A stretch of DNA of 32,000 nt from Nitrosopumilus sp. Lineage in GTDB: Archaea > Thermoproteota > Nitrososphaeria > Nitrososphaerales > Nitrosopumilaceae. The DNA is taken from contig OZ252243.1 in NCBI GenBank assembly GCA_965249555.1, forward strand, positions 1,924,961 through 1,956,960, in the 5' to 3' direction. Under the pieces are notes generated by a model, which worked only from the letters and a program-made list of their open reading frames with translations, did no database searches and was not told the origin of the DNA. The position numbers were made by a program, and so were the translations under genes. Shown one piece after another: positions 2,473-31,669 of this stretch (positions are counted from its first letter, which is position 1; each line of letters starts with the position of its first letter).

Positions 2473-2547
2473 TTAAATCATTATGACATAATTTTGTGTA
2501 TGTCATCAGTTTAAAATTTTAAATATGTATATTTGGTATTATAATCA

Positions 2548-2637: not shown

Positions 2638-2882
2638 AATTAATCTTATCTAATTTCTTACGATGATTTATTTTATTTGAAATCATATCAAAGTATGTTG
2701 AATCTTTATGTGTGATTTTTCTCTGCGTTGAAGGTAAAAAATTCTGATGACTTTGGACTAAATCCCACATCTCATGTTTCATCAATGTACACTGAAATAC
2801 ATGTCATAACCTATGACATTTCTCCAAGTTTAAAAATTAATTTACATTTTCTTTGTTTATCTGAATCATATATCAACAAATC

Positions 2883-12300: not shown

Positions 12301-13418
12301 GATATTGGCTTGTATTTTGCATCTCTAGTGGGTAAAAGATTTCTAGATTCAGCATATGCCAAGAACCATATGCGGTACATTATTTTCAGAGAGGTCTGTT
12401 TTGCTGATTCCAATTCCTCACTTGTAAATGTCTTTTTCATGTCATGCTCAAGAACACCCTTTACAATATCCAAGAACAGTCCATCCGGACTCATTATATT
12501 ATCTGAAAGATTTTCCTCTATCTCTTTGGCATAGTTTTTGCCCTCTTCAAAGAATGAATCAATATCCCTTTTCTCACCTATTTTTTCAAATGATGCCGCA
12601 CCAAACAACATTATGAGATATTTTGTAATACTGTCCTGTGCAGAGTCTAGTGATATCTCAAAATAATTAGTACTCGATGCGGAAATTTTGGCAGAATAAA
12701 GTCTCCATTTTTTGCCATTAGTAAGTATTGCCCACTGTGATTCACGTAATGTGGCAACTGCAATATAGCTTGGGGCGACCTCTGTTTCATTTTTTCTAAT
12801 GCTGAGATTGTCCTGATCTGTAACAGTTATGGATACTGTTTTGTCAAAATATGGACCAGAATTTGAAATATCCCAACCCAATTCAAAAAGCAGTTGTTCT
12901 GTATCTCCTATCTTTTCTTTTGCATTCCCTAGTTTGTCGTCAACATTTTGTCGTGTGTCTGTAAATATTCTGTTACGTAGATAGTGGGTAGAAAATAATC
13001 CCCTGTTTACAAAATCTCCTGTGGCATTTGATATTTTGTCAATTAATGTTCGGATTGCAAGCTGTAGATCAATATCATCCTGTGCGCTTTCCATGTTTGT
13101 TGATTTTAAAATGTTCGTAACACGTTGATATTCTGAATCATTTTCCAAAGATATAGTGTAACTTTGATCTAATGATTTGAAAAATAAGATATTTTTTTCT
13201 TTTAAAAATATAATACATGTGTTGAAATTTTTTGTCTGTTTTTTTACTTCTCGAACATTTTTTGGTCCGCTTTCAACAAATATGATCGGAACTTTTTTTG
13301 ACGGATTTAGATGATTAAGACTGTAGCAAAGCCATTCTTTGTGAAGTGGTGGTTGTATCTCTCGTTTGGTATCAAGACTGACTCCCATTGAGGCAAATAA
13401 TGTCTCTTGTGAAGACAA
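9351..13418 (-). CDS. Large gamma-class N6-adenine DNA methyltransferase (Eco57I/Type IIG-ISP-like) with long N-terminal and C-terminal (putative TRD) regions, 1355 aa
   Basis: Motif X FYTPDEIVTFLV, motif I VLDPSMGSGHFLV, motif IV IIGNPPW, in gamma order. The N-terminal region has WAILTNGKKWRLYS, reminiscent of restriction-enzyme N-terminal modules, but I see no clear D..ExK. The track start is TTG 13418; ATG 13388 (MGVSLD) is an alternative. Confidence 0.9.
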   Translation of the reverse strand: MSSQETLFASMGVSLDTKREIQPPLHKEWLCYSLNHLNPSKKVPIIFVESGPKNVREVKKQTKNFNTCIIFLKEKNILFFKSLDQSYTISLENDSEYQRVTNILKSTNMESAQDDIDLQLAIRTLIDKISNATGDFVNRGLFSTHYLRNRIFTDTRQNVDDKLGNAKEKIGDTEQLLFELGWDISNSGPYFDKTVSITVTDQDNLSIRKNETEVAPSYIAVATLRESQWAILTNGKKWRLYSAKISASSTNYFEISLDSAQDSITKYLIMLFGAASFEKIGEKRDIDSFFEEGKNYAKEIEENLSDNIMSPDGLFLDIVKGVLEHDMKKTFTSEELESAKQTSLKIMYRIWFLAYAESRNLLPTRDAKYKPISLQSIRNHLDSFEKNTDDECWKALLVLFDGIRNGSQKHNLPQYNGDLFKKDPSIDDISIGNKFIVNALYGLLEDDGGAIDYADFSVRHLGNIFETLMEFSPRQTEKDIMLLEDSKGVREIKTQKDATYSYKKNDLYLASKGGIVSRKTSASFYTPDEIVTFLVNQGLNPIFDEREKLIAEDVKQYKKSKNEKDLKTCMDRILDIQVLDPSMGSGHFLVESLNRITMWATDILKTYPGHPLLEEIESDRMTILAEQKKNKITIDENLLTHDVLLKRKIMKRCIFGVDLNPMAVNLAKLSLWLDSFAIGVPLTYMDHHIKNGDSTIGVRLDELKNPTEQSLDNWIEDPEKSSKFITLVGHNSDITVGQVQDSKNAYAEYMKQIRPHKMMLDTITALKMDNDIIPKKAQKNIPAYLKRISDVVLGADMNQDEKLTIQNIRNKSNTYRFFQWELAMMDAFTDSRRGFDLIIGNPPWDKVRPNNNEFFGNLDFEYRDKSTKDKEKTRKKYDEEYKKYKKGFDDKREFYKNHGGLGENTDFDLYRIIIERSLQVLAPGGMFSMVMPSAIANSRGATALRKHFLTKNIKSLCIFENRKKIFPIHSAYRFALLSVQNSKGSDKFPAAFYLQTLDELDNLENKSLVLSKKKINELSPKMSLIYEVKNQKDYEIMQKLYALHPRLEDMKIWQVDLGRELNMGEKKDRKLLIKEGGWPVFQSKNFHQHIHNYSTPQYRADVKKTLTRVKTIAKFNSQSKEIHDNPRLVYRNVSGTSNTRTMISCIIPQSVFTTIATYMAIPRIGMFEISSDYHKLNAYLCGIFNSTTFDFIIRLKIDKHVETYHLYDTPVPENFTSDIAKKISKLSAMLTLSETWHEDMADVFSISKKDVENLQLINRIEITSEIDALSALQYGLTQSEYESILQNFKSDKNSFSEDELSNNVNYTKLSDSDRNEHMRRFYGEVYKRVMKYYDLNSDISTLKQKPEEKQNGQEN

Positions 13419-13451: not shown

Positions 13452-13510
13452 ATTGGAAGAAGGAATTGGAAGAAGGAATTGGAAGAAGGAATTGGAAGAA
13501 GGAATTGGAA
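13452..13510. repeat. Tandem repeat, 13-bp unit ATTGGAAGAAGGA x4 perfect plus a 7-nt partial copy
   Basis: Units at 13452-13464, 13465-13477, 13478-13490 and 13491-13503, with a partial unit at 13504-13510. The array lies 33 nt upstream of the MTase TTG start. Confidence 0.95.
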
Positions 13511-15093: not shown

Positions 15094-16890
15094 GTGAAAT
15101 TATTTAGTATTGTTATGTTTGTTTTAGGTTTTTCTTTATTTGTAACAACTCCAATTTTTGCAACAATAGACAATCATACACTAACAGGATATGATCAAAA
15201 ATCAACAATTCAAATAGAGTTTGATAATAATCAACTAATTCGATATTCTTTAGAATTTTTAGATGGCGATTCTAAGCAAATAAATCTAACACAAATTGAT
15301 CCAAAATTCAAAATAAAAGATGATAGATTTTTTGTGATTGATAGGGCAAACGGACTTTTTATTATTGGAAAAAACATAGAAGATAAAAAATGGATTATAA
15401 TATCAAAAATAAAACTTGATTCAGAAAAAATAACTAAAAGATGGATTATAGATATTGAACCAACAAAAAAGATAACTGGACAGCGTGATTTGTTGGCAGA
15501 AAACGATAATAAATCAAGTCTAATAACTGAAAATTCATTTAAAAAATCTCAAAACTTGGACAAGTATAAGAAAATAGATGAAGCTGAAAGAATCCATCAA
15601 GAGAAACTGAAAAGATTAGAATCTCAAAATAATAAATTATCAAAAACAGAAATGGAAGCAAGTTATAGTAAATATGAAGAATACAAAAAAACAATTTTTG
15701 ATAGAGATGATGATAGACCTAAACCAATAGTTGATTCAAAAAATCAAGATGATATAGGATCTATGAAATTATTTTTATCATTGCCAAAAACTGTAGAGCA
15801 TAAACAAAAATTAGTTTACAGTGTTTTAGTAACTGATGAAACTAGAGGAAAATTTGAATCAAGTTATAATTCGTTTGTTGGTAATGGTATAGTTGATGTT
15901 ATTATTTCTAGTGTGATAAAAAATCCTCTAAATGTTGTCCTGCATGAATCAGATGGTGCTACTGATTCTAATGGTCTGTACAGTGATTCTTTCATAATAC
16001 CTGATAGGTCAACTACAAAGGGGAAATACATTTTAGAAATTAGTGCTACCAAGTCCATAGATGGAACTATACTAAAAGAGAGTTTACAAAAGAATTTTTT
16101 TGTCAATTCTGTTCATCAATCTGATAATACAAGACCATATTCTATAATAAAAGATGTATTGCCCATAATAACTATGAATCAAACAATACCAATTCTAGGC
16201 AATTTGATCAGTACCATTAAGATAGAATCTTCAAAGATTAATGCTACACATTTTAAGAGTAATGGTGGTGAAATATTTTACCTTGCCTTAAACAATCAAA
16301 CTGAATATTCTAAAGATGGCGAATATAACAAACTTGAAATAACTGCATTGCCCTATGATACAAAAAATTTTGATCTAACAAATTTTGATACAACACACTT
16401 TAAAAATTCTGATGATGTCTTTCATCGTATAAATGATACAGGAGACATAGAAACTTGGAATGGTGAAGAGTACATATTTGCGCCTAACTATACAGGATAT
16501 CAAAAGATCAATCATGCACAAGCACAATTTTTCTTAAAGGACACAGACATAGCTGATTATACAGTAACAAAATCAGAATGGCATTTAGATCAAACTGTGA
16601 AAGTTCAACTAAATGGAAGTGCTAGTTGGGATAGTGATGATCCTTTTAGTTCTTTAGAATTTTTATGGAGTATTGTAAATCCTGAAAAAAACAAATACGA
16701 AATAGATAAATCACAACTTACAGGAGCAACACCTACAGTTGATCTTAATGCTGAAGAAAAAGAAGTATTTTGGTTTGAATTGACTGTAAATGATGGAAGA
16801 AAGGATGACAGAACCCCTGCTTTGATGAATGTAACCATGTATAATGGGACAATCTATGATTCAAATTTTGTCTGCAAGTACTGTAAGTGA
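15094..16890 (+). CDS. Secreted protein, 598 aa, with a Lys/Glu-rich coiled-coil segment and a C-terminal PKD-like domain
   Basis: Signal-like N-terminus MKLFSIVMFVLGFSLFVTTPIFA (GTG start). C-terminal VQLNGSASWDSDDPFSSLEFLWSI...FWFELTVNDGRKDD resembles the PKD pattern LDGSxSxDxD..L.Y.W......f.LTVtD. Confidence 0.7.
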   Translation: MKLFSIVMFVLGFSLFVTTPIFATIDNHTLTGYDQKSTIQIEFDNNQLIRYSLEFLDGDSKQINLTQIDPKFKIKDDRFFVIDRANGLFIIGKNIEDKKWIIISKIKLDSEKITKRWIIDIEPTKKITGQRDLLAENDNKSSLITENSFKKSQNLDKYKKIDEAERIHQEKLKRLESQNNKLSKTEMEASYSKYEEYKKTIFDRDDDRPKPIVDSKNQDDIGSMKLFLSLPKTVEHKQKLVYSVLVTDETRGKFESSYNSFVGNGIVDVIISSVIKNPLNVVLHESDGATDSNGLYSDSFIIPDRSTTKGKYILEISATKSIDGTILKESLQKNFFVNSVHQSDNTRPYSIIKDVLPIITMNQTIPILGNLISTIKIESSKINATHFKSNGGEIFYLALNNQTEYSKDGEYNKLEITALPYDTKNFDLTNFDTTHFKNSDDVFHRINDTGDIETWNGEEYIFAPNYTGYQKINHAQAQFFLKDTDIADYTVTKSEWHLDQTVKVQLNGSASWDSDDPFSSLEFLWSIVNPEKNKYEIDKSQLTGATPTVDLNAEEKEVFWFELTVNDGRKDDRTPALMNVTMYNGTIYDSNFVCKYCK

Positions 16891-18074: not shown

Positions 18075-18339
18075 TTATACTATACTGGTAACAGTTGGAG
18101 CGGAAATTTTTATCAATAATGAATTCATTTATGGAAAACAATCGATTAAACCTATACCGCAATTAACATTCGATAATCTTGGATGATAGTTCGCTTTTAT
18201 CCCTTGTTCTTCATGTATATTGAAACTGATGCATTTTCCAAACTATTGACCAGCATTGAAAAAATCAGGCTCAAAAAAAAATTCAATCTTATCTATTTTT
18301 TCATAACACTTAATTCAATTGTGTTTTCAGTTTGAAATT

Positions 18340-20205
18340 GTGCGTATATTGCAATTACACTGTGACAGCATCGAGTACACTCCGACAAAAAAAGAGATCA
18401 AGATGGCCGAAGATATCAAAAATCCTGAACTCCAAAGACTTGAGGAAGTTGTAGTTGCGTTTGTTGCAATAGAAGACGGCGATGATTCTTCAGTAGCACA
18501 AGATGCTATTTCTCAAATAAAAAATTCTATGGAAAAAATTGGTTGTAAAAGATTATTACTATACCCATATGCTCATCTTAGTTCTAATCTTGCAAAACCT
18601 TCTACTGCAATGGCACTGCTCAGCGAGATGGAGACTAGTGCATCTGAGCTTGAGGTATCCCATTCCCCATTTGGTTGGACTAAATCTTATACAATACAGG
18701 TAAAAGGACACCCTCTAGCTGAAAGCTCCAAAGTTGTAACAAAAGATTCAGCAGATTCCAAAAATGAAGAAATTACATCCAAAGCCCTAAAAGGCGAATC
18801 AAAAATTCGTTCTTATTGGAAGATAATGTCTCCTGATGGAACAATGACCAACATTGCTGATTTTAATTTTGCAAATCATAAAAATTTAGAAATTCTAGCA
18901 AAATATGAATCAGCAAAACAACGTAGTGTGGATGAATCTCCACCGCATGTTGCATTGATGAAAAAAATGGCAATTGCAGATTATGAACCAGCCTCTGATT
19001 CTGGCAATATGAGATTTTATCCTAATGGCCGTTTGATAAAATCTTTGATTGAACGCTATGTGACTGATAGGGTTAAAGATTATGGTGGATATGAAGTTGA
19101 AACTCCAATCATGTATGATTCAGAACATCCAAGTATGGTTAGTTACTTTAATCGATTTCCAGCAAGACAATACAATATTGATTCCGAAGGCAAAAAACTC
19201 TTTTTGAGATTTGCTGCTTGTTTTGGACAATTCCTTATGGCCAACCAATATCAAATGTCATACAAGAATCTGCCATACAAACTCTATGAGCTTACCCGAT
19301 ACAGCTTTCGACGAGAACAATCAGGCGAGCTTGTTGGCTTGAGACGACTCAGAGCATTTACGATGCCTGACTGTCATGCGTTCTGTAAAGACTTGGACCA
19401 GGCAGTAGATGAGATTATGCTAAGATTTGAATTATCTCAAAGTGTACTTTATGAACTCGGAATCGATGAATCTGATTATGACATGGCAATTAGATTCACT
19501 GAAGACTTTTACAATGAAAATAAATCCGCAATTGAGAAGTTGGTAAAAAAACATGGCAAACCAGTATTAGTTGAAATGTGGAAAGAAAAATTCTTTTACT
19601 TTGTGCTAAAATGGGAGTTTAATTTTATTGATAATTTGGGAAAGGCATCTGCTCTTTCCACAGATCAGATTGATGTGGAAAATGCCGATAGATATGGAAT
19701 TGAATTTGTTGATGAGAACAACAATAAACAACACCCAATCATTTTGCATAATTCTCCAAGTGGCGCTATTGAAAGAATCATTTACGCGTTACTAGAAAAG
19801 GCAGCAAAAGACTCCAAAGAGGGAAAAAAACCACAATTTCCATTATGGCTAGCCCCAACACAAGTCAGAATAATTCCATTAAAAGAAGAATTTAATGACT
19901 TTTGTGAATCATTGGCTGATAAAATCTCTCTCAATAATGTCCGTGTGGATATCGATGATAGAAATGAAAGCATTGGAAAAAGAGTCCGTGAAGCAGAAAA
20001 GGAATGGATAAGATACATCTTGGTAATTGGTGAGAAAGAAGTAAATTCTGAAAATTTGAGTATTCGTGACAGAATGATTGGAGATGTCAAAGAATTATCA
20101 TTTGATGATTTCTTAAATGAAATAAACAAACAAACTAAAGGAAAGCCTTTCACTGGTTTGAATTTACCAAAACATCTATCAAAGAGACCTCAATTAATGG
20201 TGTAA
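18340..20205 (+). CDS. thrS: Threonyl-tRNA synthetase, archaeal type with N-terminal editing domain
   Basis: Editing-domain pattern ...LLLYPYAHLSSNLAKP...SPFGWTKSYTIQVKGHPLAE. Class II core FRREQSGELVGLRRLRAFTMPDCHAFC. The probable start is GTG 18340 (MRILQLHCDSIEY); the track begins at TTG 18319. Confidence 0.93.
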   Translation: MRILQLHCDSIEYTPTKKEIKMAEDIKNPELQRLEEVVVAFVAIEDGDDSSVAQDAISQIKNSMEKIGCKRLLLYPYAHLSSNLAKPSTAMALLSEMETSASELEVSHSPFGWTKSYTIQVKGHPLAESSKVVTKDSADSKNEEITSKALKGESKIRSYWKIMSPDGTMTNIADFNFANHKNLEILAKYESAKQRSVDESPPHVALMKKMAIADYEPASDSGNMRFYPNGRLIKSLIERYVTDRVKDYGGYEVETPIMYDSEHPSMVSYFNRFPARQYNIDSEGKKLFLRFAACFGQFLMANQYQMSYKNLPYKLYELTRYSFRREQSGELVGLRRLRAFTMPDCHAFCKDLDQAVDEIMLRFELSQSVLYELGIDESDYDMAIRFTEDFYNENKSAIEKLVKKHGKPVLVEMWKEKFFYFVLKWEFNFIDNLGKASALSTDQIDVENADRYGIEFVDENNNKQHPIILHNSPSGAIERIIYALLEKAAKDSKEGKKPQFPLWLAPTQVRIIPLKEEFNDFCESLADKISLNNVRVDIDDRNESIGKRVREAEKEWIRYILVIGEKEVNSENLSIRDRMIGDVKELSFDDFLNEINKQTKGKPFTGLNLPKHLSKRPQLMV

Positions 20206-21769: not shown

Positions 21770-22057
21770 CTATCGAAGTTTTCCACGTTTTCTTCTGTTA
21801 TCTGCTGATCTGATTTTAAGAATCTTAAAGTGAATTGCACATGAAATACAATACCATTTCAAAACTGTTGGCGAAGCAATGTATGCGCCTTGTGCACGTA
21901 GCTCTTTTGCCAATGTGTGCTCTACTAGGTTTATCCTGCCTGTGACTTTTTTTGCCTTGTCTTTTGGAACTGTTTGTCCACAATTTGTACATTGGACAGT
22001 TCCTGATGAGCCTTTTCCTCCTTTAGTACGACCTCTACTTGCACGTTTTAGTGGCAT
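21770..22057 (-). CDS. rps26e: Ribosomal protein eS26
   Basis: MPLKRASRGRTKGGKGSSGTVQCTNCGQTVPKDKAKK...YCISCAIH fits the eS26 zinc-ribbon pattern (CxxC...VPKDKAIK...CVSCAIH). Confidence 0.9.
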   Translation of the reverse strand: MPLKRASRGRTKGGKGSSGTVQCTNCGQTVPKDKAKKVTGRINLVEHTLAKELRAQGAYIASPTVLKWYCISCAIHFKILKIRSADNRRKRGKLR

Positions 22058-22337
22058 GAAAATAAAACCAATTTGCTTACTTATATTCTTGTGGACTAGA
22101 AATTTCTACTTATACGAATGAGTGGAGATCACCCAAAAAATATCAAGATTTTATCAAAAATAATGTGTCTATCTACTTTTGAGTTAGTCGAGACTTGGGC
22201 ATAATGATTTACAAAAAAACCAAAACTTTTCTCTAACAACAAAGCATTCTTTTCACAATCCTTGGATTCTCACTTTTAATTACACAGTTACAATACACTG
22301 CCAACTGATACGCCAGCACGCAAATCAGCACGAATGA

Positions 22338-22740
22338 TTATATATTCTCAAGTCCTTTCACCAGAACTGTTCTAATGCTAAACGTATCCTTGATTGTCTC
22401 AAAGAGTGCTTCAATTGATATTTTTCTCTGAGAATATAATTTCCGACCAACTGCTGAATTGCAAAACCCTGTCAACTTTGTTCTGTTTGGTGGCGTAGAA
22501 TGGTATTTTTTGACTGGACAGATCAATCTCATGGCATTATTCTTAGCTGACTCGTATGGTTTGGAATCATCATATGCCGGATCACACCATATACTATTCA
22601 TCAATCCAGAAAGTGACTCTCAATTTTTCATATGGCTTGACATCATGAACATTTGCAGCAGTTACACATGGCAGATAATGGAACAACTAGTCTTTCCTGT
22701 ACTGCAACTTCTGTGTAGTTTGTATCCATACACCATAGCA
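22338..22740 (-). pseudogene. IS4/IS5-family DDE transposase remnant, N-terminally truncated and frameshifted
   Basis: Three frames carry consecutive family motifs: YGYKLH (about 22713-22730); VTAANVHDVKPYEKL (about 22625-22670); WCDPAYDDSK...YSQRKISIEALFETIKDTFSIRTVLVKGLENI (track ORF 22338..22604). Confidence 0.65.
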
Positions 22741-22790
22741 ACTGTTAACTGTCGGTTGATATATAATTCAAAACGCTAGTAAGAAATGAG

Positions 22791-23099
22791 CTATTCTAGT
22801 TTATCAATTCTATTACTTAATGTTTCTATTCCTTGACCATTTGCAGTTGCAATTTCAATAACATTATCTAGTTTTTTATTCATAGTATCTAATTTTGTGC
22901 AGTTGATAGCAACTTGTTCTTTCAGTCCTCTAACTTCATTTTTTACTTCTGAGGATTGTTCTCTTAATCCACTAACTTCATTTTTTACTTCTGAGGATTG
23001 TTCTCTTAATCCACTAACTTCATTTTTTACTTCTGAGAATTGTTCTCTTAATCCACTAACTTCATTTATCAGTTCATCTGCCCATTGGGGTTTTTCCAT
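22791..23099 (-). CDS. Coiled-coil protein, 102 aa, with a tandem 14-aa repeat NEVSGLREQSSEVK
   Basis: Track ORF. The repeat units are encoded by perfect 42-bp DNA repeats. Confidence 0.6.
   Translation of the reverse strand: MEKPQWADELINEVSGLREQFSEVKNEVSGLREQSSEVKNEVSGLREQSSEVKNEVRGLKEQVAINCTKLDTMNKKLDNVIEIATANGQGIETLSNRIDKLE
22913..23067. repeat. 42-bp tandem repeat, ~3.7 copies, in frame within the 102-aa ORF
   Basis: Units 22930-22971 and 22972-23013 are identical. Unit 23014-23055 has 1 mismatch. Partial units flank the array. Confidence 0.95.
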
Positions 23100-23114
23100 A
23101 TTGTATGAAGTTCA

Positions 23115-23396
23115 TTACACTTTATTAAGTTTAGGTGATTGGGTACCTACTGCCCCTAGATTATTATGGAATATTTCACAAAAATAATGGATGGATTTTG
23201 TATCATTTGCAAAAGGTTCTGTCATTTCTCTTGCAAATGCATCAAATCTGTTTTGCAGGTTCATTGCATCTGATTGTCTGATCAGTAAAGTTCCCTGAAT
23301 GCTTTGGTTCTTGTCCAATTCTATAATCTCTGCATCAGATATTAATTTCTGTTCTAACTGTGGAACGTTCAATGAAATTTTATCTATGATATGCAC
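23115..23396 (-). CDS. Hypothetical protein, 93 aa
   Basis: Track ORF ending 15 nt upstream of the repeat-protein gene. No recognisable motif. Confidence 0.45.
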   Translation of the reverse strand: MHIIDKISLNVPQLEQKLISDAEIIELDKNQSIQGTLLIRQSDAMNLQNRFDAFAREMTEPFANDTKSIHYFCEIFHNNLGAVGTQSPKLNKV

Positions 23397-23645
23397 ATTT
23401 TACAACACCTGTTCCAAGGTCAAACCCTATCTTTACCATGCCGTAAAAATATCAGATTAATTCAAGGTATAAAATGGGTTTGAAGTTATTCTACCTTCTC
23501 GTGTTTTGATTTTGACTGGGTATCATGGTATATTCTGACAATAGAGGCGGTAAGAGAACTGAACATTCCCCATTTTTGGAACGAGCAACTAGGTGAATTT
23601 TATTTTAAACTATGAATCTTTTTCCATTAAAAATCTCAATATCGA

Positions 23646-24635
23646 CTATCCTGGTACAGATACATGCACATCATTTTCACTAAATGAATCTTTTTCCATT
23701 AAAAATCTCAATATCGACCCAACAATATCCCTAAAATGATCTTCTCCGAATCTATTATTCTTCTGAAATAATTTAATTATAATTAACATGCCTTCATCTT
23801 TTTTATTATTGTCTAGTATGGAAGATGATTTGCATTCCATCAATCTTCCATTATGTGGATCTTGATATTCATTTAGTACTGTTATAATCGCATATCTATC
23901 TGACCGTTCTTTATCATTTGGTACAAAATTTTCTGGGGATATTAAAAAATCTGTTTTAGTATTAAAACTCCGATCATTTATTTTAAAATATTCTTCTTCT
24001 ACCGTGCATGTATACTCTTTATCCCCTAATGTAAAACCAAATCCACTGTTTATTGGTTTTGTCAATATGCCCTCAGATTCAATATTTAGTCTGAAATACT
24101 CACGTATTACGTCTCTTGAATTTGCTTTATCTTTATCCTTATATTCTAAACTTATAGGTTCATTAAGAAATTTTATAATGTAATTCATATCTGAGATAAA
24201 TGCATTAATTTTTCTTGGACATGAGATTTGTAAAGCATTCACATATGCTTCATTGTCGTTTTTTCCTGATATGTATCCACGAATAATACTTGTAGACATG
24301 TAGGAGATTGGCGTGTCCGTATCTGTTATTCGTATTAGGACGTGTTTTTCCATTGGATCATTGTTGCTTGCTGAAAATGTGTTTTGACATATCAAAATAT
24401 CTGCTCTTGGATCAAATTTGGTTCCAAGTGATGGTAATTCAACACTATATTTTATTTCTTCATTAAAACACCTATATTTTTTGTTTCTAAGTATGAAATA
24501 AAATCCATCCTCATCACTACCATGTTTAATATTATTATAACTAATATATTGCCATTTTCCAAATTGATCTGGTTCTTCAATATATTTTTGAAAAATTGTA
24601 ACAAGATCTTTTATTGTAATATCTTTTTCAGACAT
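23646..24635 (-). CDS. Hypothetical protein, 329 aa, with an apparent internal two-domain duplication
   Basis: Track ORF with an ATG start. Segments FYFILRNKKYRCFNEEIKY...DILICQNTF and FGFTLGDKEYTCTVEEEYF...DFLISPENF look paralogous. No known domain recognised. Confidence 0.6.
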   Translation of the reverse strand: MSEKDITIKDLVTIFQKYIEEPDQFGKWQYISYNNIKHGSDEDGFYFILRNKKYRCFNEEIKYSVELPSLGTKFDPRADILICQNTFSASNNDPMEKHVLIRITDTDTPISYMSTSIIRGYISGKNDNEAYVNALQISCPRKINAFISDMNYIIKFLNEPISLEYKDKDKANSRDVIREYFRLNIESEGILTKPINSGFGFTLGDKEYTCTVEEEYFKINDRSFNTKTDFLISPENFVPNDKERSDRYAIITVLNEYQDPHNGRLMECKSSSILDNNKKDEGMLIIIKLFQKNNRFGEDHFRDIVGSILRFLMEKDSFSENDVHVSVPG

Positions 24636-24702
24636 GGCATTATAATTTAATTAATAAATATCAATGTTATCCTATTTGGAATTGTGTATTTTTACATACT
24701 TT

Positions 24703-25050
24703 TCATTGGTATATGTGGCAGTAGTGTAAAGAAGTGTAAAGAAATCTGCTATTGCCATACCAAACTGATGATGATTCCATGACAATATTGGCATGAATCG
24801 GTATGTCTGTAAAATGGTTCTTGATTGATTCATGAGTGTTCTCAACTTTTATGTTTTGTAATATCTTTCCGTCATTATCCATTGTTGCTACTTGAAGAGA
24901 TTCCTTGTGCAAGTCAATGCCAACATACATGCCCTTGTCTTTTTTTGCCCTAATCTGTTTCTTTGGACTTTTCTTGGAATACGATGGATTACGAGTCCTG
25001 GATCTGGGTTCATTTTTTATGCTATCTGAATTCCTTCTTTTTGTATTCAC
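24703..25050 (-). pseudogene. IS110-family transposase N-terminal fragment
   Basis: MYVGIDLHKESLQVATMDNDGKILQNIKVENTHESIKNHF...ANIVMESSSVWYG matches the DEDD_Tnp_IS110 N-terminus (vGIDlhK........d..G). The frame then degenerates and stops, and the C-terminal domain is absent. Confidence 0.65.
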
Positions 25051-25069
25051 ATATAGTTATTTTATCATC

Positions 25070-25402
25070 TCAGAAAACATGCTCAATCCCCTTGGTTTCC
25101 CGTGCCTCAAGGCATGCAAGAAAGACGGAGATCATCCTCATACCCTGATTTGTGCGTGAAGGTTGATACATACTTTTCATACTGTTAAATTCTTCCTGGG
25201 TTATTTCGCCTTTGACAAATCTGGTCTTAAGAAGTGTCATTGGGTTTTCGGCAACTTGGACATTGGAAATAGGTTTGCTGGTGTCCTCTTTATTTTCCTT
25301 TACTTCTTTGATTTTATCACGAATGTAATTGTATAAAATTTCTGCCTAGTCTTTTGGTATTACAACAATTGTTCCTTCTGCATTTCGTCCTCAAATGGCC
25401 AT
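25070..25402 (-). pseudogene. Chimeric remnant: SHOCT-like ORF with two in-frame stops, fused to an IS66-like tail
   Basis: Read by eye: MAI*GRNAEGTIVVIPKD*AEILYNYIRDKIKEVKENKEDTSKPISNVQVAENPMTLLKTRFVKGEITQEEFNSMKSMYQPSRTNQGMRMISVFLACLEARETKGIEHVF*. The stops are TGA at 25391-25393 and TAG at 25346-25348. LLKTRFVKGEITQEEF fits the SHOCT pattern. Confidence 0.4.
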
Positions 25403-25579
25403 ATTATGACCAGCCTTTGACATCTGTCATTCTATGTAATGAAAACACCCGACGCGCAACACGAATAAGATCCTTATTGAGTATATTCGATTTGGTAAAT
25501 CCGAACCCGTGAAGGTTGTAAATATTTATCAACATATACAAAACAATATGAACATGGAATATTGTGGGGGTAATGAGAA

Positions 25580-27440
25580 ATGACGAAGAAAATTAATAAA
25601 GAATCTGTAAACATAATAGATGAGAAAATATCTATTTTAAAGAAAAACTTTCCTGAATGCTTTATCGGGGGGGGGGGGGTTAAATTTTGATAGACTTAGA
25701 AACTCTTTAGGGGATCTGGTGGATACGGGGGATGAAAAATACACATTTTCTTGGGCTGGTAGGAAAGACACATTCGAAAATATTCAGACAACTAGCAAGG
25801 GAACACTTATTCCAGATAAATCTGAATCTGTAAACTTTGATGATACGGAAAATCTTTTCATTGAGGGTGATAATTTGGAAGTCTTAAAATTATTGCATAA
25901 ATCATTATTTCAAAAAGTTAAAATTATTTACATTGATCCCCCATACAATATAGGTAGTGATTTCATCTACAAAGACGATTTCAAAAAAGGTGTAAATAAT
26001 TATCTGGAGCAGACAAATCAATCAAAAGACGGAATAACATTAACCACAAATCCAGAAACATCTGGACGATTTCATTCTGATTGGATATCATTTATGTATG
26101 CAAGATTGTTTGTGGCTAAAAATTTACTTTCTGATGATGGTGTGATCTTTGTATCTATTGGTGACAATGAAGTTCATAATTTGAAATTTATAATGAATGA
26201 TATATTCGGAGAAGAAAACTTGATATCAGAAGTTATTTGGCATAGCAAGTACACTACGTCAAATGATAAAAAACTCATATCTACACAGCATGAATATGTC
26301 ATGATTTATGCAAAAAATATTCATAGAGCAAATTTCAACCTATTGCCACGTACAGAAAAAGCTGACAAGGATTACAAAAATCCAGACAACGATCCTCGTG
26401 GAAAATGGAAGCCCACACCAATACATGCAAAGAGTGGTAAAAATAATATAAAATATAATTTTACTAACATACGCAAGTTTGACGGCAAAAAAATACCCTC
26501 TTTTGTTTGGTCTGCACCAAAAGGAAGATATCCAAGATATAGCAAAGAAACACTGGGAAGACTTGAGGCAGACAATAGAATAAGCTGTGGTATAAATGGA
26601 ACAGGTGTGCCTAATTCCAAAACTTTTCTCAATGAAGTCCAACAAGGAATGGTATCAGGGTCTTTATGGAAATATGAGGATGTGGGACATACCCATGGAG
26701 CAAATGAGGAATTATCCGATTTGATAGGTAAGGGTGTTTTTGATAATCCAAAACCTGTGAAATTAATTAAAAGAATATTACAGTTATCAACAAATTCAAA
26801 AGGTAATGATATTGTATTGGATTTTTTTGCTGGCTCTGGAACCACCGCACACTCTGTATTGGGATTAAACAAAGAAGATGGTGGAAATAGAAAATTTATT
26901 TGTGTTCAAATACCAGAAACAATAGAGGATGAACTAGAAAACAAACCCACAATAGATTTCTTAAAAGAATTAAAAAAACCCATGAATATTTCCGAAATAT
27001 GCAAGGAAAGAATAAGACGTGTTATCAAGAATCTAGATTCAAATCAGGGATTCAAGGTATTCAAACTTGCAAAATCAAACTATAACATCTGGGAGAATTA
27101 TGATGGAAAAGACCAAAAAAAATTAAAAGAACAGATGAAAATATTTGCGACCCCATTAATTGAAAAATACAAGGATATTGATGTAATTTATGAATGCATA
27201 ATAAAAGAAGGGTATAATCTGAACAGTAAATTGGAAAAATTAACTATCAAACCAAACACCATATACAAGATATCAAATGATGATAAAATATTCTATCTGA
27301 CATTGGATAAAATAATAAAACTTGATAGTGTGGAAGAATTGGAACTTGGTAAAAACCAAACTTTGTTTTGTTTAGATTCATCACTGGATGACAGTATGAA
27401 GATGAATTTATCAAAACAATGTACACTGAAAACAATATAG
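25580..27440 (+). CDS. mod: Type III R-M Mod methyltransferase (beta-class N6A/N4C), reading frame split at a G13 tract
   Basis: Motif IV IYIDPPYN, then motif I LDFFAGSGTTAH. The 5' fragment is ATG 25580..TGA 25690. The main frame is open from 25641 (track ORF 25719..27440). The two frames are offset by +1 across the G run. Confidence 0.9.
25667..25679 (+). repeat. Homopolymeric G13 tract inside the 5' end of mod
   Basis: Counted directly: 4 G at 25667-25670 plus 9 G at 25671-25679. Confidence 0.95.
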
Positions 27441-27441
27441 A

Positions 27442-30024
27442 GTGAATATTATGGAGATAGAATTTTTATCAAATCTTGACTTTCAATTAAATGCCATAAA
27501 GTCAACCGTATCCATTTTTGAATCTCAGAAATTTAAAAGGGACACTTCTCTCCTGATGGGGGAAATAATTTCAAATAATCTGAATCTAACAACACCACAA
27601 ATACTAGATAATATAAAAAAAATCCAAGAAAGAAATAATATTGATCTAGTTAAAGAATTAAAAGGAATGAATTTTTCAATAGAGATGGAAACTGGGACAG
27701 GCAAAACATATGTTTATCTTAAAACAGTATTTGAATTGTATCAAAATTACGGGTTCAAAAAGTTTCTAGTAATTGTACCCTCTGTTGCAATACGAGAGGG
27801 GGTGATCAAAACTCTACAAATGACACAAAAACACTTTAGAGATATTTATGATAAAATCCCTTATGATTATTACGAATATGATTCAAAGAAAATCAATCAA
27901 ATCAGGCAATTTGTAAGATCTAATGATATTCAAATTATGATCATGACGATTGACTCTTTTAATAAAGATAATAACATAATGAATCAAGCACAGGACAAAC
28001 TAAATGGTGAAAAACCAATACACGTGATAAGCAAAACAAACCCAATAATGATATTGGACGAGCCACAAAACATGGAAAGCGACAAAACCAAAGATGCGAT
28101 ATCTAACATGAAACCGTTATTCACATTAAGGTATTCTGCAACTCATAAAGATGTTTACAATCTTGTATACCGTCTCAGCCCAGTTAATGCGTATAACATG
28201 AATCTTGTGAAAAAGATCGAAGTTATGTCAGTAATTAAAAACAACAAATTTAACCACTTACTTATCAAATGTGAAAAAATTATAGCTGAAAAGAAAGGAA
28301 TCAGGGCAAAACTATCGCTTAATAAAAAAACTGAAACGAATTACAAAGAAAAATTATTTGTGATTAAAATTGAAGACGATTTGGAACAAAAAACCAACAA
28401 TCCTGAATATAGTGGATTCATAGTATCTGAAATTGATGCAAAACGTAATTTTATCAGATTTACAAATGGAATCAAAATAAAGCTTGGTGAGGGGGAGGGC
28501 ACAGACAGAGAAGAAATAATGAAAAACCAAATTAGGCAGACAGTAGAAGAGCACTTTGAAAAGGCCGTGAGATTGAAGAAAAAGGGAATAAAGCCACTAT
28601 CATTGTTTTTTATAGATAAGGTGGACAACTATGTCCCAAAAGATGGGTTCATAAAAAAAACATTTGAGAATTCATTTGATAAATTAAAAAAGAATTATCC
28701 ACAATTTAAAAATTTGAAGGCAAAGGATGTTCACAAGGGATATTTTTCTAAACGAAAATCAGATAGTGGAATGGAGAATGATAAAGAGGTATTTAATTTA
28801 ATAATGAAGGATAAAGAAAAATTAATCTCTTTTGAGGAGCCAGTTCAGTTTATCTTTTCACACTCAGCACTAAGAGAAGGGTGGGATAATCCAAACGTGT
28901 TTAACATCTGTACACTAAATCAGACGAAATCTGTAATCAAAAAAAGACAGGAAATAGGGAGGGGGATGAGACTGCCAATAAACCAAGAGGGGGTAAGAGT
29001 CCATGGAGACCAGAATATTTTGTCTGTAATCGCAAATGAACACTATGCAAATTATGCGAAAACACTTCAATTGGAATATGAGGAAGAATATGGGTATGGA
29101 AATTCCCCTGGAATTCTTGATAGTTCAGAAAGAAAAACACTGAAATTAAAAAAGGGTTTTGAGTTAAATCCTGAATTTCAGAAACTTTGGAAAAAAGTAT
29201 CAAAAAAGACAAAATATGCGGTATCTATTGACACTAAACATCTGATAAAGTCATGTGTGGAAAGGATAGACTCGTCTGTTACCGTGTCCCCAATCAATAT
29301 CGATATTATAACTGCAACGCTGTCGGTAGTAGGAGATGATTCAGAGGTAAAAGTGGACACGGATATTGTTGGAATGGGTGGTGATAAGTTTGAAACACAG
29401 TTTTCAATTCCCAATATTATTGAACATTTAGCCAACGATACAAAATTAACACGTAATACCATATTATACATATTAACAAAAACCAGTAAACTTAATCAGA
29501 TTTTTTTGAATCCACAATTTTTCATATCCAGAATATCAGATATTATAAAAGATGAATTGAAAAATTTTCTGGTAAATGGTGTAAAGTATCAAGAAATAGA
29601 AGAATGGTATAAGATGGAATTGTTTGAAGATATTATAACCCATAAAGAGGTTGTTTCTGTAAAACACTCCATATATGAGAAACTGATTCGTGAATCTGAT
29701 GTTGAGGAAGGGTTTGCCGTAAGCCTCGACAAACAACCCAATGTCAGATTATTTACAAAATTACCAGATTGGTTCAAAGTGCAAACTCCAATTGGTGGTT
29801 ATAATCCTGACTGGGCTATTATGTTAAATGATATGGATGAACATAAGAGATTACGTGAAAAACTATACCTTGTGTCTGAAACAAAGGGAGCCATTAGCCC
29901 CAGAAGCCGTTCAATTGATGAGAATGACAAGATCAGGTGTGCCAGGAAGCATTTTGCGGAAATTGACACAAAGTATGATGTAGTAACAAGCATCGATGAC
30001 TTTCTAAAAAACCTCAAAAATTAA
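27442..30024 (+). CDS. res: Type III restriction enzyme Res subunit (SF2 helicase plus C-terminal PD-(D/E)xK nuclease)
   Basis: Motif I METGTGKTYVY, motif II IMILDEPQN, HSALREGWDNPNVF. Nuclease motif YNPDWAIML...LYLVSETKG. Starts 1 nt after the mod stop, at GTG 27442 or ATG 27451. Confidence 0.92.
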   Translation: MNIMEIEFLSNLDFQLNAIKSTVSIFESQKFKRDTSLLMGEIISNNLNLTTPQILDNIKKIQERNNIDLVKELKGMNFSIEMETGTGKTYVYLKTVFELYQNYGFKKFLVIVPSVAIREGVIKTLQMTQKHFRDIYDKIPYDYYEYDSKKINQIRQFVRSNDIQIMIMTIDSFNKDNNIMNQAQDKLNGEKPIHVISKTNPIMILDEPQNMESDKTKDAISNMKPLFTLRYSATHKDVYNLVYRLSPVNAYNMNLVKKIEVMSVIKNNKFNHLLIKCEKIIAEKKGIRAKLSLNKKTETNYKEKLFVIKIEDDLEQKTNNPEYSGFIVSEIDAKRNFIRFTNGIKIKLGEGEGTDREEIMKNQIRQTVEEHFEKAVRLKKKGIKPLSLFFIDKVDNYVPKDGFIKKTFENSFDKLKKNYPQFKNLKAKDVHKGYFSKRKSDSGMENDKEVFNLIMKDKEKLISFEEPVQFIFSHSALREGWDNPNVFNICTLNQTKSVIKKRQEIGRGMRLPINQEGVRVHGDQNILSVIANEHYANYAKTLQLEYEEEYGYGNSPGILDSSERKTLKLKKGFELNPEFQKLWKKVSKKTKYAVSIDTKHLIKSCVERIDSSVTVSPINIDIITATLSVVGDDSEVKVDTDIVGMGGDKFETQFSIPNIIEHLANDTKLTRNTILYILTKTSKLNQIFLNPQFFISRISDIIKDELKNFLVNGVKYQEIEEWYKMELFEDIITHKEVVSVKHSIYEKLIRESDVEEGFAVSLDKQPNVRLFTKLPDWFKVQTPIGGYNPDWAIMLNDMDEHKRLREKLYLVSETKGAISPRSRSIDENDKIRCARKHFAEIDTKYDVVTSIDDFLKNLKN

Positions 30025-30274
30025 ATCTGATGTTAAATAAATAATTTATTCTGCTTCCTAAGATGGTATAATTTCTTTAAAAAATATTTCATAAATTCAT
30101 ATTACATTCATTGGTAAGTGATATACAAAACAACAACTTAACAGTAAAAACCTCTAATTAGGTCAGTCCTGTTGAATCCTCTCTACTCAATCCTGAGAAG
30201 ATCATGATTTCATGTCTACCCTATAACCCAACAGTGCCCACATGGCAAAATACCTTTAAAACCGACAGGTATTA

Positions 30275-30325
30275 ATTCCATCCCTCGAATGGAACACCCA
30301 CTGATTCCATCCCTCGAATGGAACA
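30275..30325. repeat. Two direct copies (29-bp period) of the 22-nt unit ATTCCATCCCTCGAATGGAACA, each with the palindrome TTCCAT-n7-ATGGAA
   Basis: Copies at 30275-30296 and 30304-30325. A third degenerate half-site CTCGAAGATGGAACA lies at about 30357-30371. Confidence 0.85.
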
Positions 30326-30799
30326 TTTTGTTGAAATCATGGAAATTTGGGAAATCACTCGAAGATGGAACAGTGTAAAGATCCTCACCTAACACCCACA
30401 GATGCAACAGAACCAATAAGGAAATAGATATAATTAACTTGGAAGGGGTTGATTCGAATAGTGAAGTCAAATTGTTCTGAAACTGTTTCAATTTCTTGGC
30501 ATGGATAAAAATATCCAATTGTCTTCAATAGTCTTTTTTACAAATCCCCATGCTTGGTCATGACAGGTTTTTATGATGGTATTATGTAATTAAATTAATG
30601 GATGAACCAAAATTGAAGACAAGCACATTTGGAGATAATTTTGTTGTTACTGAAAATGAATCCATTGCAATTTTAAAAAAAATAACCAGTAAATATAGTT
30701 AATTTTTGTATCACTGTTGTAGAAATAATGGCTTTTCAGATATAGTTGTGATAAAAACAATGCAAAAAACTAAATCTGCAACATTTTGAACTAAAAGAA

Positions 30800-31669
30800 A
30801 TGAAATTAGCAGTATTTTCTCATTGTGCAATTGATACTATTACCATTGATAATTATAATTATGAACAAATTGGTGGTTCTGCCTGTTATTGTGGAATTAC
30901 TGCAAGACAGTTCAAATTTGATGTAGATTTGTTCACTAAATTTGGACCTGATTTTCCAAAACAATATCTTACTGAAAACAAAATCAATTTCATAAATTCT
31001 GAATCAGAAAAAAACACTACCAAATTTGCTATTTCTATTAACGGCTCAGATAGAACTCTTAAACTTGAAAATGAATGTGATGCAATTGATTACTCTAGTG
31101 TTAATGCTGATGGACATATAGTTAGTCCTATTTATCACGAAATTTCTTATGATACTTTAAAACAAATCAAAAATGATTCTAATTTCCTCTTTCTTGATCC
31201 TCATGGTTTTATGAGGAAAAAAGATTCTCAAAATAATATTGTTTTAGAAAATATCAATCTTGATTTATCAAATGTTAATGCAATAAAGGTTAATCCTGAA
31301 GAAGCTCAACATATTGTTAATGGCACCAATGATGAAATCATGTTGGCATTACAGAAAAAAGGAGTTGAATACGTATTGCTTACAAATAAAACTGACGTGT
31401 CTCTTTTGGTAAAAGATAAAATCTATTCCATTACTCTTCCAAATAAACAAATTCATGATACCACTGGAATTGGTGATATTTTTTGCTCAGCATTTTGTTG
31501 TACTATGCTTAAAGAAAAGGACTTTTTATGGGCATTATGCTTTGCTGGCGGTGCTGCTCAAGCTGCACTTGAATCAAAGAATGTAGGCTTGCAAAAGATT
31601 CCAAGAAAGGGAACCATTCAGACAAATGCCTCTTATTTTTACAATTTGTTAAAATTCAGAGATTTGTAG
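30800..31669 (+). CDS. PfkB-family carbohydrate/nucleoside kinase
   Basis: N-terminal GG region IGGSACYCG and the C-terminal PfkB signature DTTGIGDIFCSAF. Confidence 0.8.
   Translation: MKLAVFSHCAIDTITIDNYNYEQIGGSACYCGITARQFKFDVDLFTKFGPDFPKQYLTENKINFINSESEKNTTKFAISINGSDRTLKLENECDAIDYSSVNADGHIVSPIYHEISYDTLKQIKNDSNFLFLDPHGFMRKKDSQNNIVLENINLDLSNVNAIKVNPEEAQHIVNGTNDEIMLALQKKGVEYVLLTNKTDVSLLVKDKIYSITLPNKQIHDTTGIGDIFCSAFCCTMLKEKDFLWALCFAGGAAQAALESKNVGLQKIPRKGTIQTNASYFYNLLKFRDL

What the first reader, a model, noticed from the sequence alone, without database searches (positions are those of the whole stretch)
25580..25720. G13 homopolymer splits the Type III mod gene: a phase-variation (phasevarion-type) switch in an archaeon
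ATG 25580 opens MTKKINKESVNIIDEKISILKKNFPECFIGGGGVKF, ending at TGA 25688-25690. The long mod frame is open from 25641 and reads ...GGGGLNFDRLRNSLGDLVDTGDEKYTFSWAGRKD.... Together these make a contiguous, typical Mod N-terminus. ATG 25580 to GTG 25719 is 139 nt (3n+1), so G12 or G15 would give one 619-aa Mod. G13 gives OFF, or at best an N-terminally truncated product, while res stays intact. Simple-sequence tracts in Type III mod genes are the established basis of phasevarions in host-adapted bacteria. I am not aware of this being described for archaea.
Basis: partly seen in the sequence, partly recalled or inferred. Interest (0 to 1): 0.75.

Follow-up and report, generated by a model that had tools for sequence, protein, structure and literature searches.

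The report
Poly-G switch in archaeal methylase gene
A run of 13 G's breaks the reading frame of the DNA-methylase gene of a restriction system in an ammonia-oxidizing archaeon (Nitrosopumilus); related archaeal genes carry similar runs, some in frame and some not, which points to the random on/off switch so far described only in bacteria.

Summary
A pure G13 tract (25667-25679) splits an otherwise intact Type III mod gene. G12 gives a 619-aa Mod that aligns end to end with full-length homologues. res is intact. The host is a Nitrosopumilus, and the R-M pair sits in a variable island slot.

The tract is not chance and not a coding need. No other G/C run in the window exceeds 6, and GGG is the rarest Gly codon. 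Relatives have 9 mixed bases (T/S-E-G-x) at this site. The tract lies in a predicted loop of the N-terminal dimerisation domain.

I could not see reads or any second copy of this allele. So G13 versus G12 (assembly error) and reversible switch versus fresh pseudogene stay unresolved for this locus.

The family shows the comparative signature of phase variation. Type III mod genes on Nitrosopumilaceae or similar AT-rich contigs carry 5' poly-C tracts of 11, 11 (both out of frame), 12 and 15 (both in frame). One set of near-identical Mods is annotated with or without the tract-bearing N-terminus.

The mechanism is the known bacterial one (as in H. pylori modH), here in a new domain of life. A "phasevarion" regulon is unsupported; phase-variable defence is the more economical reading. 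This is a new member of a known kind, of moderate to high interest.

The parts
25667..25679 (+). G13 homopolymer tract, the putative slippage site. It encodes Gly30-33 of the restored Mod.
   Evidence: Relatives have T/S-E-G-x (ACA/TCT GAA GGG/GGA ACT/ATT/AAG, 9 nt after TTT) at this position. It lies in a predicted loop between N-terminal-domain helices 12-23 and 36-43.
25580..25690 (+). 5' fragment of mod: ATG 25580, 36 codons, TGA 25688. Residues 1-29 are the conserved Mod N-terminus (..LKKNFPECF).
   Evidence: The fragment aligns with the N-termini of full-length homologues P0002-P0012 and with EcoP15I Mod residues 15 onwards.
25641..27440 (+). Main mod reading frame (+1 relative to the ATG), open from 25641. 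The annotated start is GTG 25719 (573 aa). It contains IYIDPPYN (motif IV) and DFFAGSGTT (motif I).
   Evidence: Pfam N6_N4_Mtase scores 2.8e-36. PADLOC MTase_III scores 1.2e-167, and the 573-aa product covers profile positions 53-611 of 621. PDB matches are 6k0w and 4zcf Mod.
27451..30024 (+). res: Type III restriction subunit with an SF2 helicase and a C-terminal endonuclease domain. It is intact.
   Evidence: Pfam ResIII, DEAD and RE_endonuc. PADLOC REase_III scores 6.1e-236. Full-length alignment at 56% identity to L084 Res.
24703..25050 (-). Remnant of an IS110-family transposase (only the first ~76 of 343 profile positions), just upstream of mod. It marks the region as island cargo.
22058..30799 (.). 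Variable island slot between rpS26e (21770-22057, -) and the PfkB kinase gene (30800-31669, +). Here it holds IS remnants plus mod-res. Close relatives hold a Type II MTase, an HNH gene and an IS240-type transposase (PF13610) in the same slot.
   Evidence: Synteny with L081-L083, whose ThrRS is 92% identical. rpS26e identified by NCBIfam. PfkB identified by Pfam.

Best explanation
The G13 run is a hypermutable simple-sequence tract inside the 5' coding region of a horizontally acquired Type III mod gene in a Nitrosopumilus genome. Replication slippage changes its length by one or more bases. Lengths of 3n (G9, G12, G15) give full-length Mod, with 3-5 glycines in a loop of the N-terminal dimerisation domain. 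All other lengths, including the G13 in this assembly, stop translation after 33-37 codons. At best they leave a product from GTG 25719 that lacks that domain. Res needs Mod to find and cut DNA, so the tract switches the whole restriction-modification system on and off in a fraction of cells. That would be bet-hedging between virus defence and its costs. Shown: the tract, the frame logic, the gene identities, the host, the island context, and comparable tracts of in-frame and out-of-frame length in related archaeal mod genes. Inferred: that slippage occurs at a useful rate in this organism, that the OFF state abolishes activity, and that the switching is selected.
For: (1) The tract is the only lesion in 619 codons. 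The catalytic motifs are intact and res is intact.
(2) It is not chance and not a coding need. No other G/C run exceeds 6. GGG makes up 11.8% of Gly codons. None of the 24 Gly-Gly pairs in the window's ORFs uses GGGGGG.
(3) Relatives have 9 mixed bases at the site, so the tract has grown to 12+1.
(4) It lies in a predicted loop between N-terminal-domain helices, 5% into the gene. [quoted passage not shown]
(5) In 1.155 Mb of 160 homologue loci, the only three G/C tracts of 9 or more all sit at the 5' end of mod-like genes. L009 is out of frame, L066 is in frame in the same linker, and L069 follows directly after an ATG.
(6) Archaeal-type relatives carry poly-C tracts within the first 11 codons: C11 OFF (L171), C11 OFF at 86x coverage (L172), C12 ON (L173) and C15 ON (L174). 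L174 belongs to the Nitrosopumilaceae by its NuoD cluster.
(7) One cluster of near-identical Mods contains 649-aa forms with MVSKNAPPPP... It also contains a 632-aa form, named Nitrosopumilus or Nitrosopumilaceae, that starts just after the PPPP.
(8) Thaumarchaeota lack MutS/MutL (PMC4838380).
(9) About 43 shorter homopolymers lie inside long ORFs of the window without any frameshift, so the assembly is not generally indel-ridden.
Against: There are no reads and no second copy of this allele. The nearest homologue is 68% identical, and an exact-flank scan of metagenomes gave 0 hits. Length variation at this locus is therefore unobserved. A 13-base homopolymer is where long-read assemblies err, and related contigs carry names like those a HiFi metagenome assembler writes. 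The island contains decayed IS elements. In close relatives the resident Type II MTase is being lost through ordinary 2-nt deletions, so R-M decay happens in this slot. In L171 res is broken by an IS. I found the OFF examples through truncated protein calls, which is an ascertainment bias. The taxonomy of L171-L173 is not verified. Slippage rates in Thaumarchaeota are unknown.
Confidence: 0.55

Rival explanations
1. Assembly or consensus error. The true tract is G12 and mod is intact and expressed. The frameshift is a homopolymer miscall.
For: G13 is one base from in-frame. It is the only frameshift in the gene and sits in the longest homopolymer of the window. Contigs of close relatives have names like those a long-read metagenome assembler writes. 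Two other tract-bearing genes are also exactly one base out of frame.
Against: About 43 shorter homopolymers in long ORFs of the window are in frame. L172's out-of-frame C11 comes from a contig labelled 86x coverage. The same kind of assemblies also yield in-frame C12 and C15 tracts. The errors needed would go in opposite directions: -1 for the window and +1 for L171 and L172. Even if this rival is true, a G12 tract would still be a predicted hypermutable site. It changes the state, not the nature, of the feature.
Confidence: 0.2
2. Plain pseudogene. The R-M system is island cargo under relaxed selection. A G-run expanded by neutral slippage and the gene is on its way to loss, with no selected switching.
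For: IS remnants flank the system. The same slot in relatives holds an MTase broken by 2-nt deletions. L171 combines an out-of-frame tract with an IS-disrupted res. The tract is absent from all relatives of this allele.
Against: There is no second lesion in 1.86 kb of mod or 2.6 kb of res. A pure 13-base G run in a 33% G+C genome is not expected to arise or persist neutrally. Homopolymers recur at the 5' ends of diverged mod alleles (about 50-75% amino-acid identity), in both in-frame and out-of-frame lengths. That is the pattern of maintained contingency tracts, not of random decay.
Confidence: 0.2
3. Recoding or a truncated enzyme. Full-length Mod is still made from the G13 template by transcriptional slippage or a +1 ribosomal slip on the G run. 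Alternatively, the GTG 25719 product (573 aa, the form annotated in public databases) is active. In either case the gene is constitutively on, or only attenuated.
For: The +1 frame needed is the one a slip on GGG codons would give. An SD-like AGGGGAT lies 4 nt upstream of GTG 25719. The MTase core and the C-terminal domain that contacts Res are retained.
Against: The truncated product lacks the whole N-terminal domain, which intertwines in the Mod2 dimer of EcoP15I. It also lacks profile positions 1-52, which full-length relatives all retain. No stimulatory element was identified. Tract lengths differ among alleles (11, 12, 13, 15), which argues against one fixed recoding site.
Confidence: 0.05

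Closest known systems
Helicobacter pylori modH/modJ/modL and Campylobacter upsaliensis modU (Type III mod genes with a poly-G tract; Atack et al. 2018, PMC5909438)
   Same: A mononucleotide G run lies inside the mod ORF. ON/OFF follows from frame. The Mod belongs to the same beta-class Type III family. The window's Mod matches an 'Adenine specific DNA methyltransferase (Mod)' structure, 6k0w, at E 4e-68. That it is the H. pylori enzyme is my recollection, not a tool result.
   Different: The host is an archaeon (Nitrosopumilus), not a host-adapted epsilonproteobacterium. The tract has an independent origin, in the loop of the N-terminal domain. There is no allele series and no demonstrated switching or regulon. 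res is intact here.
Haemophilus influenzae / Neisseria modA phasevarions (tetranucleotide AGCC/AGTC repeats)
   Same: A simple-sequence repeat in the 5' part of a Type III mod gene gives stochastic loss and regain of methylation.
   Different: The repeat unit is 4 nt, not 1. Regulon control has been shown experimentally there and is untested here. That res is often inactive in those systems is from my own knowledge.
Phase-variable restriction-modification as defence bet-hedging (reviewed in PMC11868660 and PMC12707154)
   Same: [quoted passage not shown]
   Different: All described cases are bacterial. The 2025 review lists archaeal distributions as future work.
Poly-C tracts at the 5' end of Nitrosopumilaceae-type Type III mod genes found here (L171-L174, P0254 cluster)
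   Same: They belong to the same Mod clade (49-57% amino-acid identity to one another or to the window). They sit in AT-rich archaeal-type contexts. They are G/C homopolymers of 11 or more bases at the 5' end, in ON and OFF lengths.
   Different: Their tract is C on the coding strand (poly-Pro) and lies within the first 11 codons, ahead of the first helix. The window's tract is G (poly-Gly), 29 codons in. The origins are therefore separate.

Membership tests
Type III restriction-modification system (Mod + Res) | Mod is a beta-class N6-adenine methyltransferase: DPPY motif IV lies N-terminal to FxGxG motif I, with the target-recognition domain between them | tested here: met
   IYIDPPYN at residues 116-123 and DFFAGSGTT at about 414-422 of the restored protein. 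Pfam PF01555 scores 2.8e-36. PADLOC MTase_III scores 1.2e-167. EcoP15I Mod (4zcf) scores 3e-58 and 6k0w scores 4e-68.
Type III restriction-modification system (Mod + Res) | An adjacent, co-oriented res gene that encodes an SF2 helicase plus a C-terminal endonuclease | tested here: met
   27451-30024: ResIII, DEAD and RE_endonuc. REase_III scores 6e-236. It starts 11 nt after the mod stop codon.
Type III restriction-modification system (Mod + Res) | Hemimethylation of a short asymmetric site, and ATP-dependent cleavage that requires two inverted unmethylated sites | not testable with these tools
   This needs methylome data or biochemistry.
Simple-sequence-repeat phase-variable mod gene (criteria of Atack et al. 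2018) | A mononucleotide tract of at least 9 bases inside the mod ORF | tested here: met
   G13 at codons 30-34 of the ORF that opens at ATG 25580. The criterion is quoted.
Simple-sequence-repeat phase-variable mod gene (criteria of Atack et al. 2018) | Gain or loss of repeat units moves the gene between a full-length and a truncated frame | tested here: met
   In-silico series G9 to G17.
Simple-sequence-repeat phase-variable mod gene (criteria of Atack et al. 2018) | Different tract lengths observed between strains or within a population | tested here: inconclusive
   For this allele no second copy exists in the databases searched. For the related poly-C group the lengths are 11, 11, 12 and 15, but across diverged alleles. 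One cluster of near-identical proteins has forms with and without the tract-bearing N-terminus, but its DNA could not be fetched.
Simple-sequence-repeat phase-variable mod gene (criteria of Atack et al. 2018) | Demonstrated ON/OFF expression of the methyltransferase | not testable with these tools
   This needs reads, fragment analysis or methylome data.
Phasevarion (phase-variable regulon) | Methylation state changes the expression of multiple unlinked genes | not testable with these tools
   No expression or methylome data are available. The intact res favours a defence role. The solitary poly-C mod in L174 would be a better candidate for a regulatory methylase.

The most novel reading that the evidence does not exclude
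Ammonia-oxidizing archaea of the Nitrosopumilaceae use homopolymer-driven phase variation of Type III methyltransferases as a lineage-wide contingency strategy. At least some of these, such as the solitary poly-C mod in L174, would act as epigenetic regulators. That would be the first phasevarions outside Bacteria, in globally abundant nitrifiers rather than host-adapted pathogens.
Probability: 0.15. Interest if true: 0.8.

Novelty: new member of a known kind. Interest (0 to 1): 0.6.

Why it matters
Simple-sequence phase variation of R-M systems is treated as a bacterial trait, mostly of pathogens. A 2025 review names archaeal distributions as an open item, and two recent surveys of archaeal R-M systems do not mention it. 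Suppose Nitrosopumilus and its relatives switch Type III systems on and off through G/C tracts. Then populations of a key marine nitrifier would be mosaics of restriction and methylation states. That would affect virus-host dynamics, gene flow and the reading of metagenomic methylomes. It would also mean that 'truncated' mod genes in archaeal MAGs should not be dismissed as pseudogenes. The claim is cheap to test, because the reads behind these public assemblies already exist.

Tried and rejected
- **Source genome not recovered.** Exact-protein look-ups for P0001 and for the agmatinase were not on record. Their clusters are singletons without names.
- **Exact-flank pattern with a variable gap in JGI metagenomes.** This gave 0 hits.
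- **Eighty more metagenome loci of the family.** No tract was found.
- **Truncated Mods P0097 and P0105.** In L168 the upstream frame is simply open in frame from further upstream, with no homopolymer. L169 starts at the contig edge. Neither is a tract case.
- **Taxonomic naming of L171-L173 through cluster members.** No names were returned. An Rfam scan found only a tRNA.
- **The 13-nt perfect tandem repeat upstream of the Type IIG gene (13452-13510).** I considered it as a second coding switch and rejected that. A TAA at 13421-13419 closes the long frame immediately upstream of its start, so no repeat number can fuse the upstream ATG to it.
- **The sigma-70 promoter and terminator scan.** It is not informative for an archaeon and I ignored it.
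- **The 426-428-aa Mod-like proteins (P0080 group).** They are a consistently shorter family with a different N-terminus, not frameshift products.

Full report
**Observation.**
ATG 25580 opens a 36-codon frame (MTKKINKESVNIIDEKISILKKNFPECFIGGGGVKF) that ends at TGA 25688-25690. The +1 frame is open from 25641 to 27440 and reads ...GGGGLNFDRLRNSLGDLVDTGDEKYTFSWAGRKD.... The two frames meet in a pure run of 13 G at 25667-25679.

The run is far beyond chance. The next-longest G or C run in the 32 kb is 6, and the iid expectation for a run of 13 or more is about 4e-6. G9 never occurred in 100 dinucleotide-preserving shuffles.

An in-silico length series shows that G9, G12 and G15 give 618, 619 and 620 aa. 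All other lengths from 9 to 17 give 33-37 aa.

**What the genes are.**
- The restored 619-aa protein is a Type III Mod. Pfam N6_N4_Mtase scores 2.8e-36 and PADLOC MTase_III scores 1.2e-167.
- It matches the solved Mod structures 6k0w (E 4e-68) and EcoP15I 4zcf (E 3e-58), and the alignment begins at the N-terminal LK.NFP.CF motif.
- Motifs IV (IYIDPPYN) and I (DFFAGSGTT) are intact.
- Public annotation carries only the 573-aa product from GTG 25719 (P0001). That product lacks positions 1-52 of the family profile.
- The next gene is a complete Type III Res. It has ResIII, DEAD and RE_endonuc domains, and REase_III scores 6e-236. It aligns end to end at 56% identity with a homologue's 852-aa Res, and its start is ATG 27451.
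- In Type III systems Res must complex with Mod to cleave (PMC10609329). Loss of Mod therefore silences restriction as well.

**Host and context.**
- The ThrRS gene at 18319-20205 has the archaea-specific editing domain. It is 88-95% identical to many proteins named Nitrosopumilus sp..
- Contigs of relatives with 92%-identical ThrRS share a backbone: ThrRS, agmatinase, CDP-alcohol phosphatidyltransferase, rpS26e, [variable slot], PfkB kinase, NAD kinase.
- In those relatives the variable slot holds a Type II MTase, an HNH gene and an IS240-type transposase (PF13610). In the window it holds IS remnants plus mod-res. The Type III system is therefore island cargo.
- A survey of 14 complete Nitrosopumilales genomes found no Type III system (PMC10609329).
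- The nearest Mod relatives (68% and 66% identity; P0002, P0004) are full length and have adjacent 852-aa Res genes. The host of P0002 belongs to the Nitrosopumilaceae, because its NAD kinase is 78% identical to that of the ThrRS relatives.

**The tract compared with relatives.**
After the conserved codons CCN-GAA-TG(T/C)-TTT (PECF), relatives read ACA/TCT GAA GGG/GGA ACT/ATT/AAG, which encodes T/S-E-G-x. The window reads ATC followed by G13. A 9-base mixed segment has thus become a homopolymer and grown to 12+1 bases. The in-frame form carries one extra residue.

The tract is not needed for coding. GGG makes up only 11.8% of Gly codons in the window's ORFs. None of their 24 Gly-Gly pairs uses GGGGGG.

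An AlphaFold model (pLDDT 85) places Gly30-33 in a loop between helices 12-23 and 36-43. In EcoP15I the corresponding N-terminal domain (aa 14-60) consists of helices that intertwine between the two Mod subunits and form part of the dimer interface (PMC4490356).

So in-frame length changes are probably tolerated. The GTG 25719 product would lack the whole domain. That this abolishes activity is an inference.

**Is the frameshift real?**
I could not see reads. About 43 shorter homopolymers (A/T of 7 or more, G/C of 5 or more) lie inside long ORFs of the window without disturbing them. The assembly is therefore not generally indel-ridden.

A 13-base run is still exactly where consensus errors occur. 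Contigs of relatives have names like those a long-read metagenome assembler writes. No second copy of this allele exists in the protein database, in the genome scan or in JGI metagenomes.

G13 versus G12, and a reversible switch versus a fixed frameshift, therefore remain open for this locus.

**Comparative evidence in bacterial homologues.**
I scanned 160 homologue loci totalling 1.155 Mb. Only three G/C runs of 9 or more were present, and all three lie at the 5' end of mod-like genes.
- **L009:** a Poribacteria MAG with a G9 that splits mod about 12 codons downstream of the window's site.
- **L066:** a Bacteroides MAG with an in-frame C9 in the same linker between FP.C.TE and IDFDKL.
- **L069:** a second Poribacteria MAG with a G9 directly after an ATG.

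**Comparative evidence in archaeal-type relatives.**
Truncated Mod calls in the protein database led me to archaeal-type loci.

| Locus | Source contig | Tract | State | Notes |
|---|---|---|---|---|
| L171 | ENA ERZ25067264 ctg810573_5x_l | C11, 7 codons after the ATG | out of frame | res broken by an IS |
| L172 | ENA ERZ26695902 ctg129008_86.37x_l | C11, 2 codons after the ATG | out of frame | 2.03-Mb contig, 32% G+C, labelled 86x; res intact |
| L173 | ENA ERZ25070786 ctg145447l | C12 | in frame (MSSKKRSPPPPG...) | |
| L174 | ENA ERZ28747376 ctg13675 | C15 | in frame (VNQPPPPPD...) | |

- L174 belongs to the Nitrosopumilaceae. Its NuoD falls in a 90%-identity cluster with proteins named Nitrosopumilus, Nitrosotenuis and Nitrosarchaeum.
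- The poly-C mod in L174 is solitary and lies beside a convergent, complete mod-res pair.
- All of these ON/OFF assignments were checked in silico.
- A cluster of four near-identical Mods holds two 649-aa forms that begin MVSKNAPPPPRELSKGTM... It also holds a 632-aa form, named Nitrosopumilaceae archaeon / Nitrosopumilus sp., that begins at the Met just after the PPPP. A fourth, 625-aa form begins later still. This is what tract-length polymorphism would produce, but I could not fetch the DNA.
- The taxonomy of L171-L173 is inferred only from base composition and from similarity of mod-res to Nitrosopumilaceae loci.

**Mechanism and rivals.**
The best-supported reading (0.55) is a slippage-prone tract that toggles Mod, and with it the whole R-M system. 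Thaumarchaeota lack MutS/MutL (PMC4838380), which would favour instability. The actual rates are unknown.

The rivals are these:
- **A homopolymer miscall of G12 (0.2).** This would change the state but not the nature of the tract.
- **Plain decay of island cargo (0.2).** In close relatives the resident Type II MTase is being lost through 2-nt deletions that are not at homopolymers. L171 also has an IS-disrupted res. Against this, the window's mod and res have no second lesion. Pure G/C runs of 11-15 bases also recur at the 5' ends of alleles that are only about 50-75% identical.
- **Recoding or an active truncated enzyme (0.05).**

A 'phasevarion' in the strict sense, meaning a regulon, has no support here. 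With res intact, phase-variable defence is the simpler hypothesis.

**What is known.**
Poly-G tracts in Type III mod genes are the basis of H. pylori modH/J/L and C. upsaliensis modU. The field's criterion for a phase-variable mod is a mononucleotide run of at least 9 (PMC5909438). That survey's text does not mention archaea, and its supplements were not available.

Two reviews of archaeal R-M systems cite phasevarions only as bacterial work. A 2025 review of phase variation lists archaeal distributions as future work. General homopolymer surveys included archaeal genomes but reported no such case.

Within the library I could search, the archaeal occurrence is therefore undescribed. REBASE itself could not be consulted.

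**Verdict.**
[quoted passage not shown] Interest is 0.6.

Noticed in passing
L171 2080-2111; L172 3636-3652; L173 6001-6033; L174 6001-6024: A group of Type III mod genes on AT-rich contigs carries poly-C tracts within the first 11 codons. L174 is confirmed as Nitrosopumilaceae. The tracts are C11 and C11 (out of frame, annotated as truncated proteins) and C12 and C15 (in frame, encoding PPPP and PPPPP).
   Followed up: partly
Protein cluster of P0254 (P0254, P0323, P0324, P0325): Four near-identical Mods are annotated as 649, 649, 632 and 625 aa. The shorter ones start just downstream of an N-terminal PPPP. One 649-aa copy is labelled Alphaproteobacteria and the 632-aa copy Nitrosopumilus, so mis-binning is likely. 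This suggests tract-length polymorphism, but the DNA was not retrievable.
   Followed up: partly
L174 6001-12361: A solitary poly-C mod gene lies next to a convergent, complete Type III mod-res pair, beside the nuo operon. This arrangement would suit a regulatory, phasevarion-like methylase.
   Followed up: no
L009 3820-3981; L066 4101-4109; L069 3509-3519: Bacterial MAG homologues also carry G9 or C9 tracts at the 5' end of mod. These are the only G/C runs of 9 or more in 1.155 Mb of homologue loci. The Poribacteria gene in L009 is split by its tract.
   Followed up: yes
window 13452-13510: A perfect 13-nt tandem repeat (ATTGGAAGAAGGA, 4.5 copies) lies 34-92 nt upstream of the start of the Type IIG gene on the minus strand. 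It cannot fuse reading frames, because a TAA lies directly before the ORF. It could still change the spacing of the promoter or leader.
   Followed up: partly
window 6059-13418 (-): A second defence module pairs a 1355-aa Type IIG / DrmMI-like methyltransferase with a 1102-aa HKD(PLD)+SNF2 helicase (PADLOC C3a139 'HKD+Snf2', DrmD-like). The two genes overlap by 17 nt.
   Followed up: partly
window 2547-2638 (+): An Rfam DUF3800-X RNA motif scores 46.7 bits (gathering threshold 38.2), in a stretch with few long ORFs.
   Followed up: no
window 22338-25050: This stretch holds several remnants and unknowns. There is an IS110 N-terminal fragment (24703-25050, -). An 88-aa ORF at 22338-22604 (-) looks to me like a transposase C-terminal fragment, but I did not test it. 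A 102-aa coiled-coil ORF is built from 42-nt tandem repeats (22914-23067, 3.7 copies). A 329-aa ORF (23646-24635, -) has no family match.
   Followed up: partly
L081 16106-17155 compared with L082 and L083: In near-identical Nitrosopumilus contigs, the Type II N6_N4 MTase in the same island slot is intact in one. In the others it is broken by one or two 2-nt deletions that are not at homopolymers. This is ordinary R-M decay in progress.
   Followed up: yes
L171 3892-8091: The res gene of this poly-C mod locus is interrupted by an insertion of a DDE_3 transposase. The helicase part (596 aa) is separated from the endonuclease part (203 aa).
   Followed up: no
window 15094-16890 (+): A 598-aa ORF between the defence module and ThrRS has no hit in Pfam, NCBIfam or PADLOC.
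   Followed up: no
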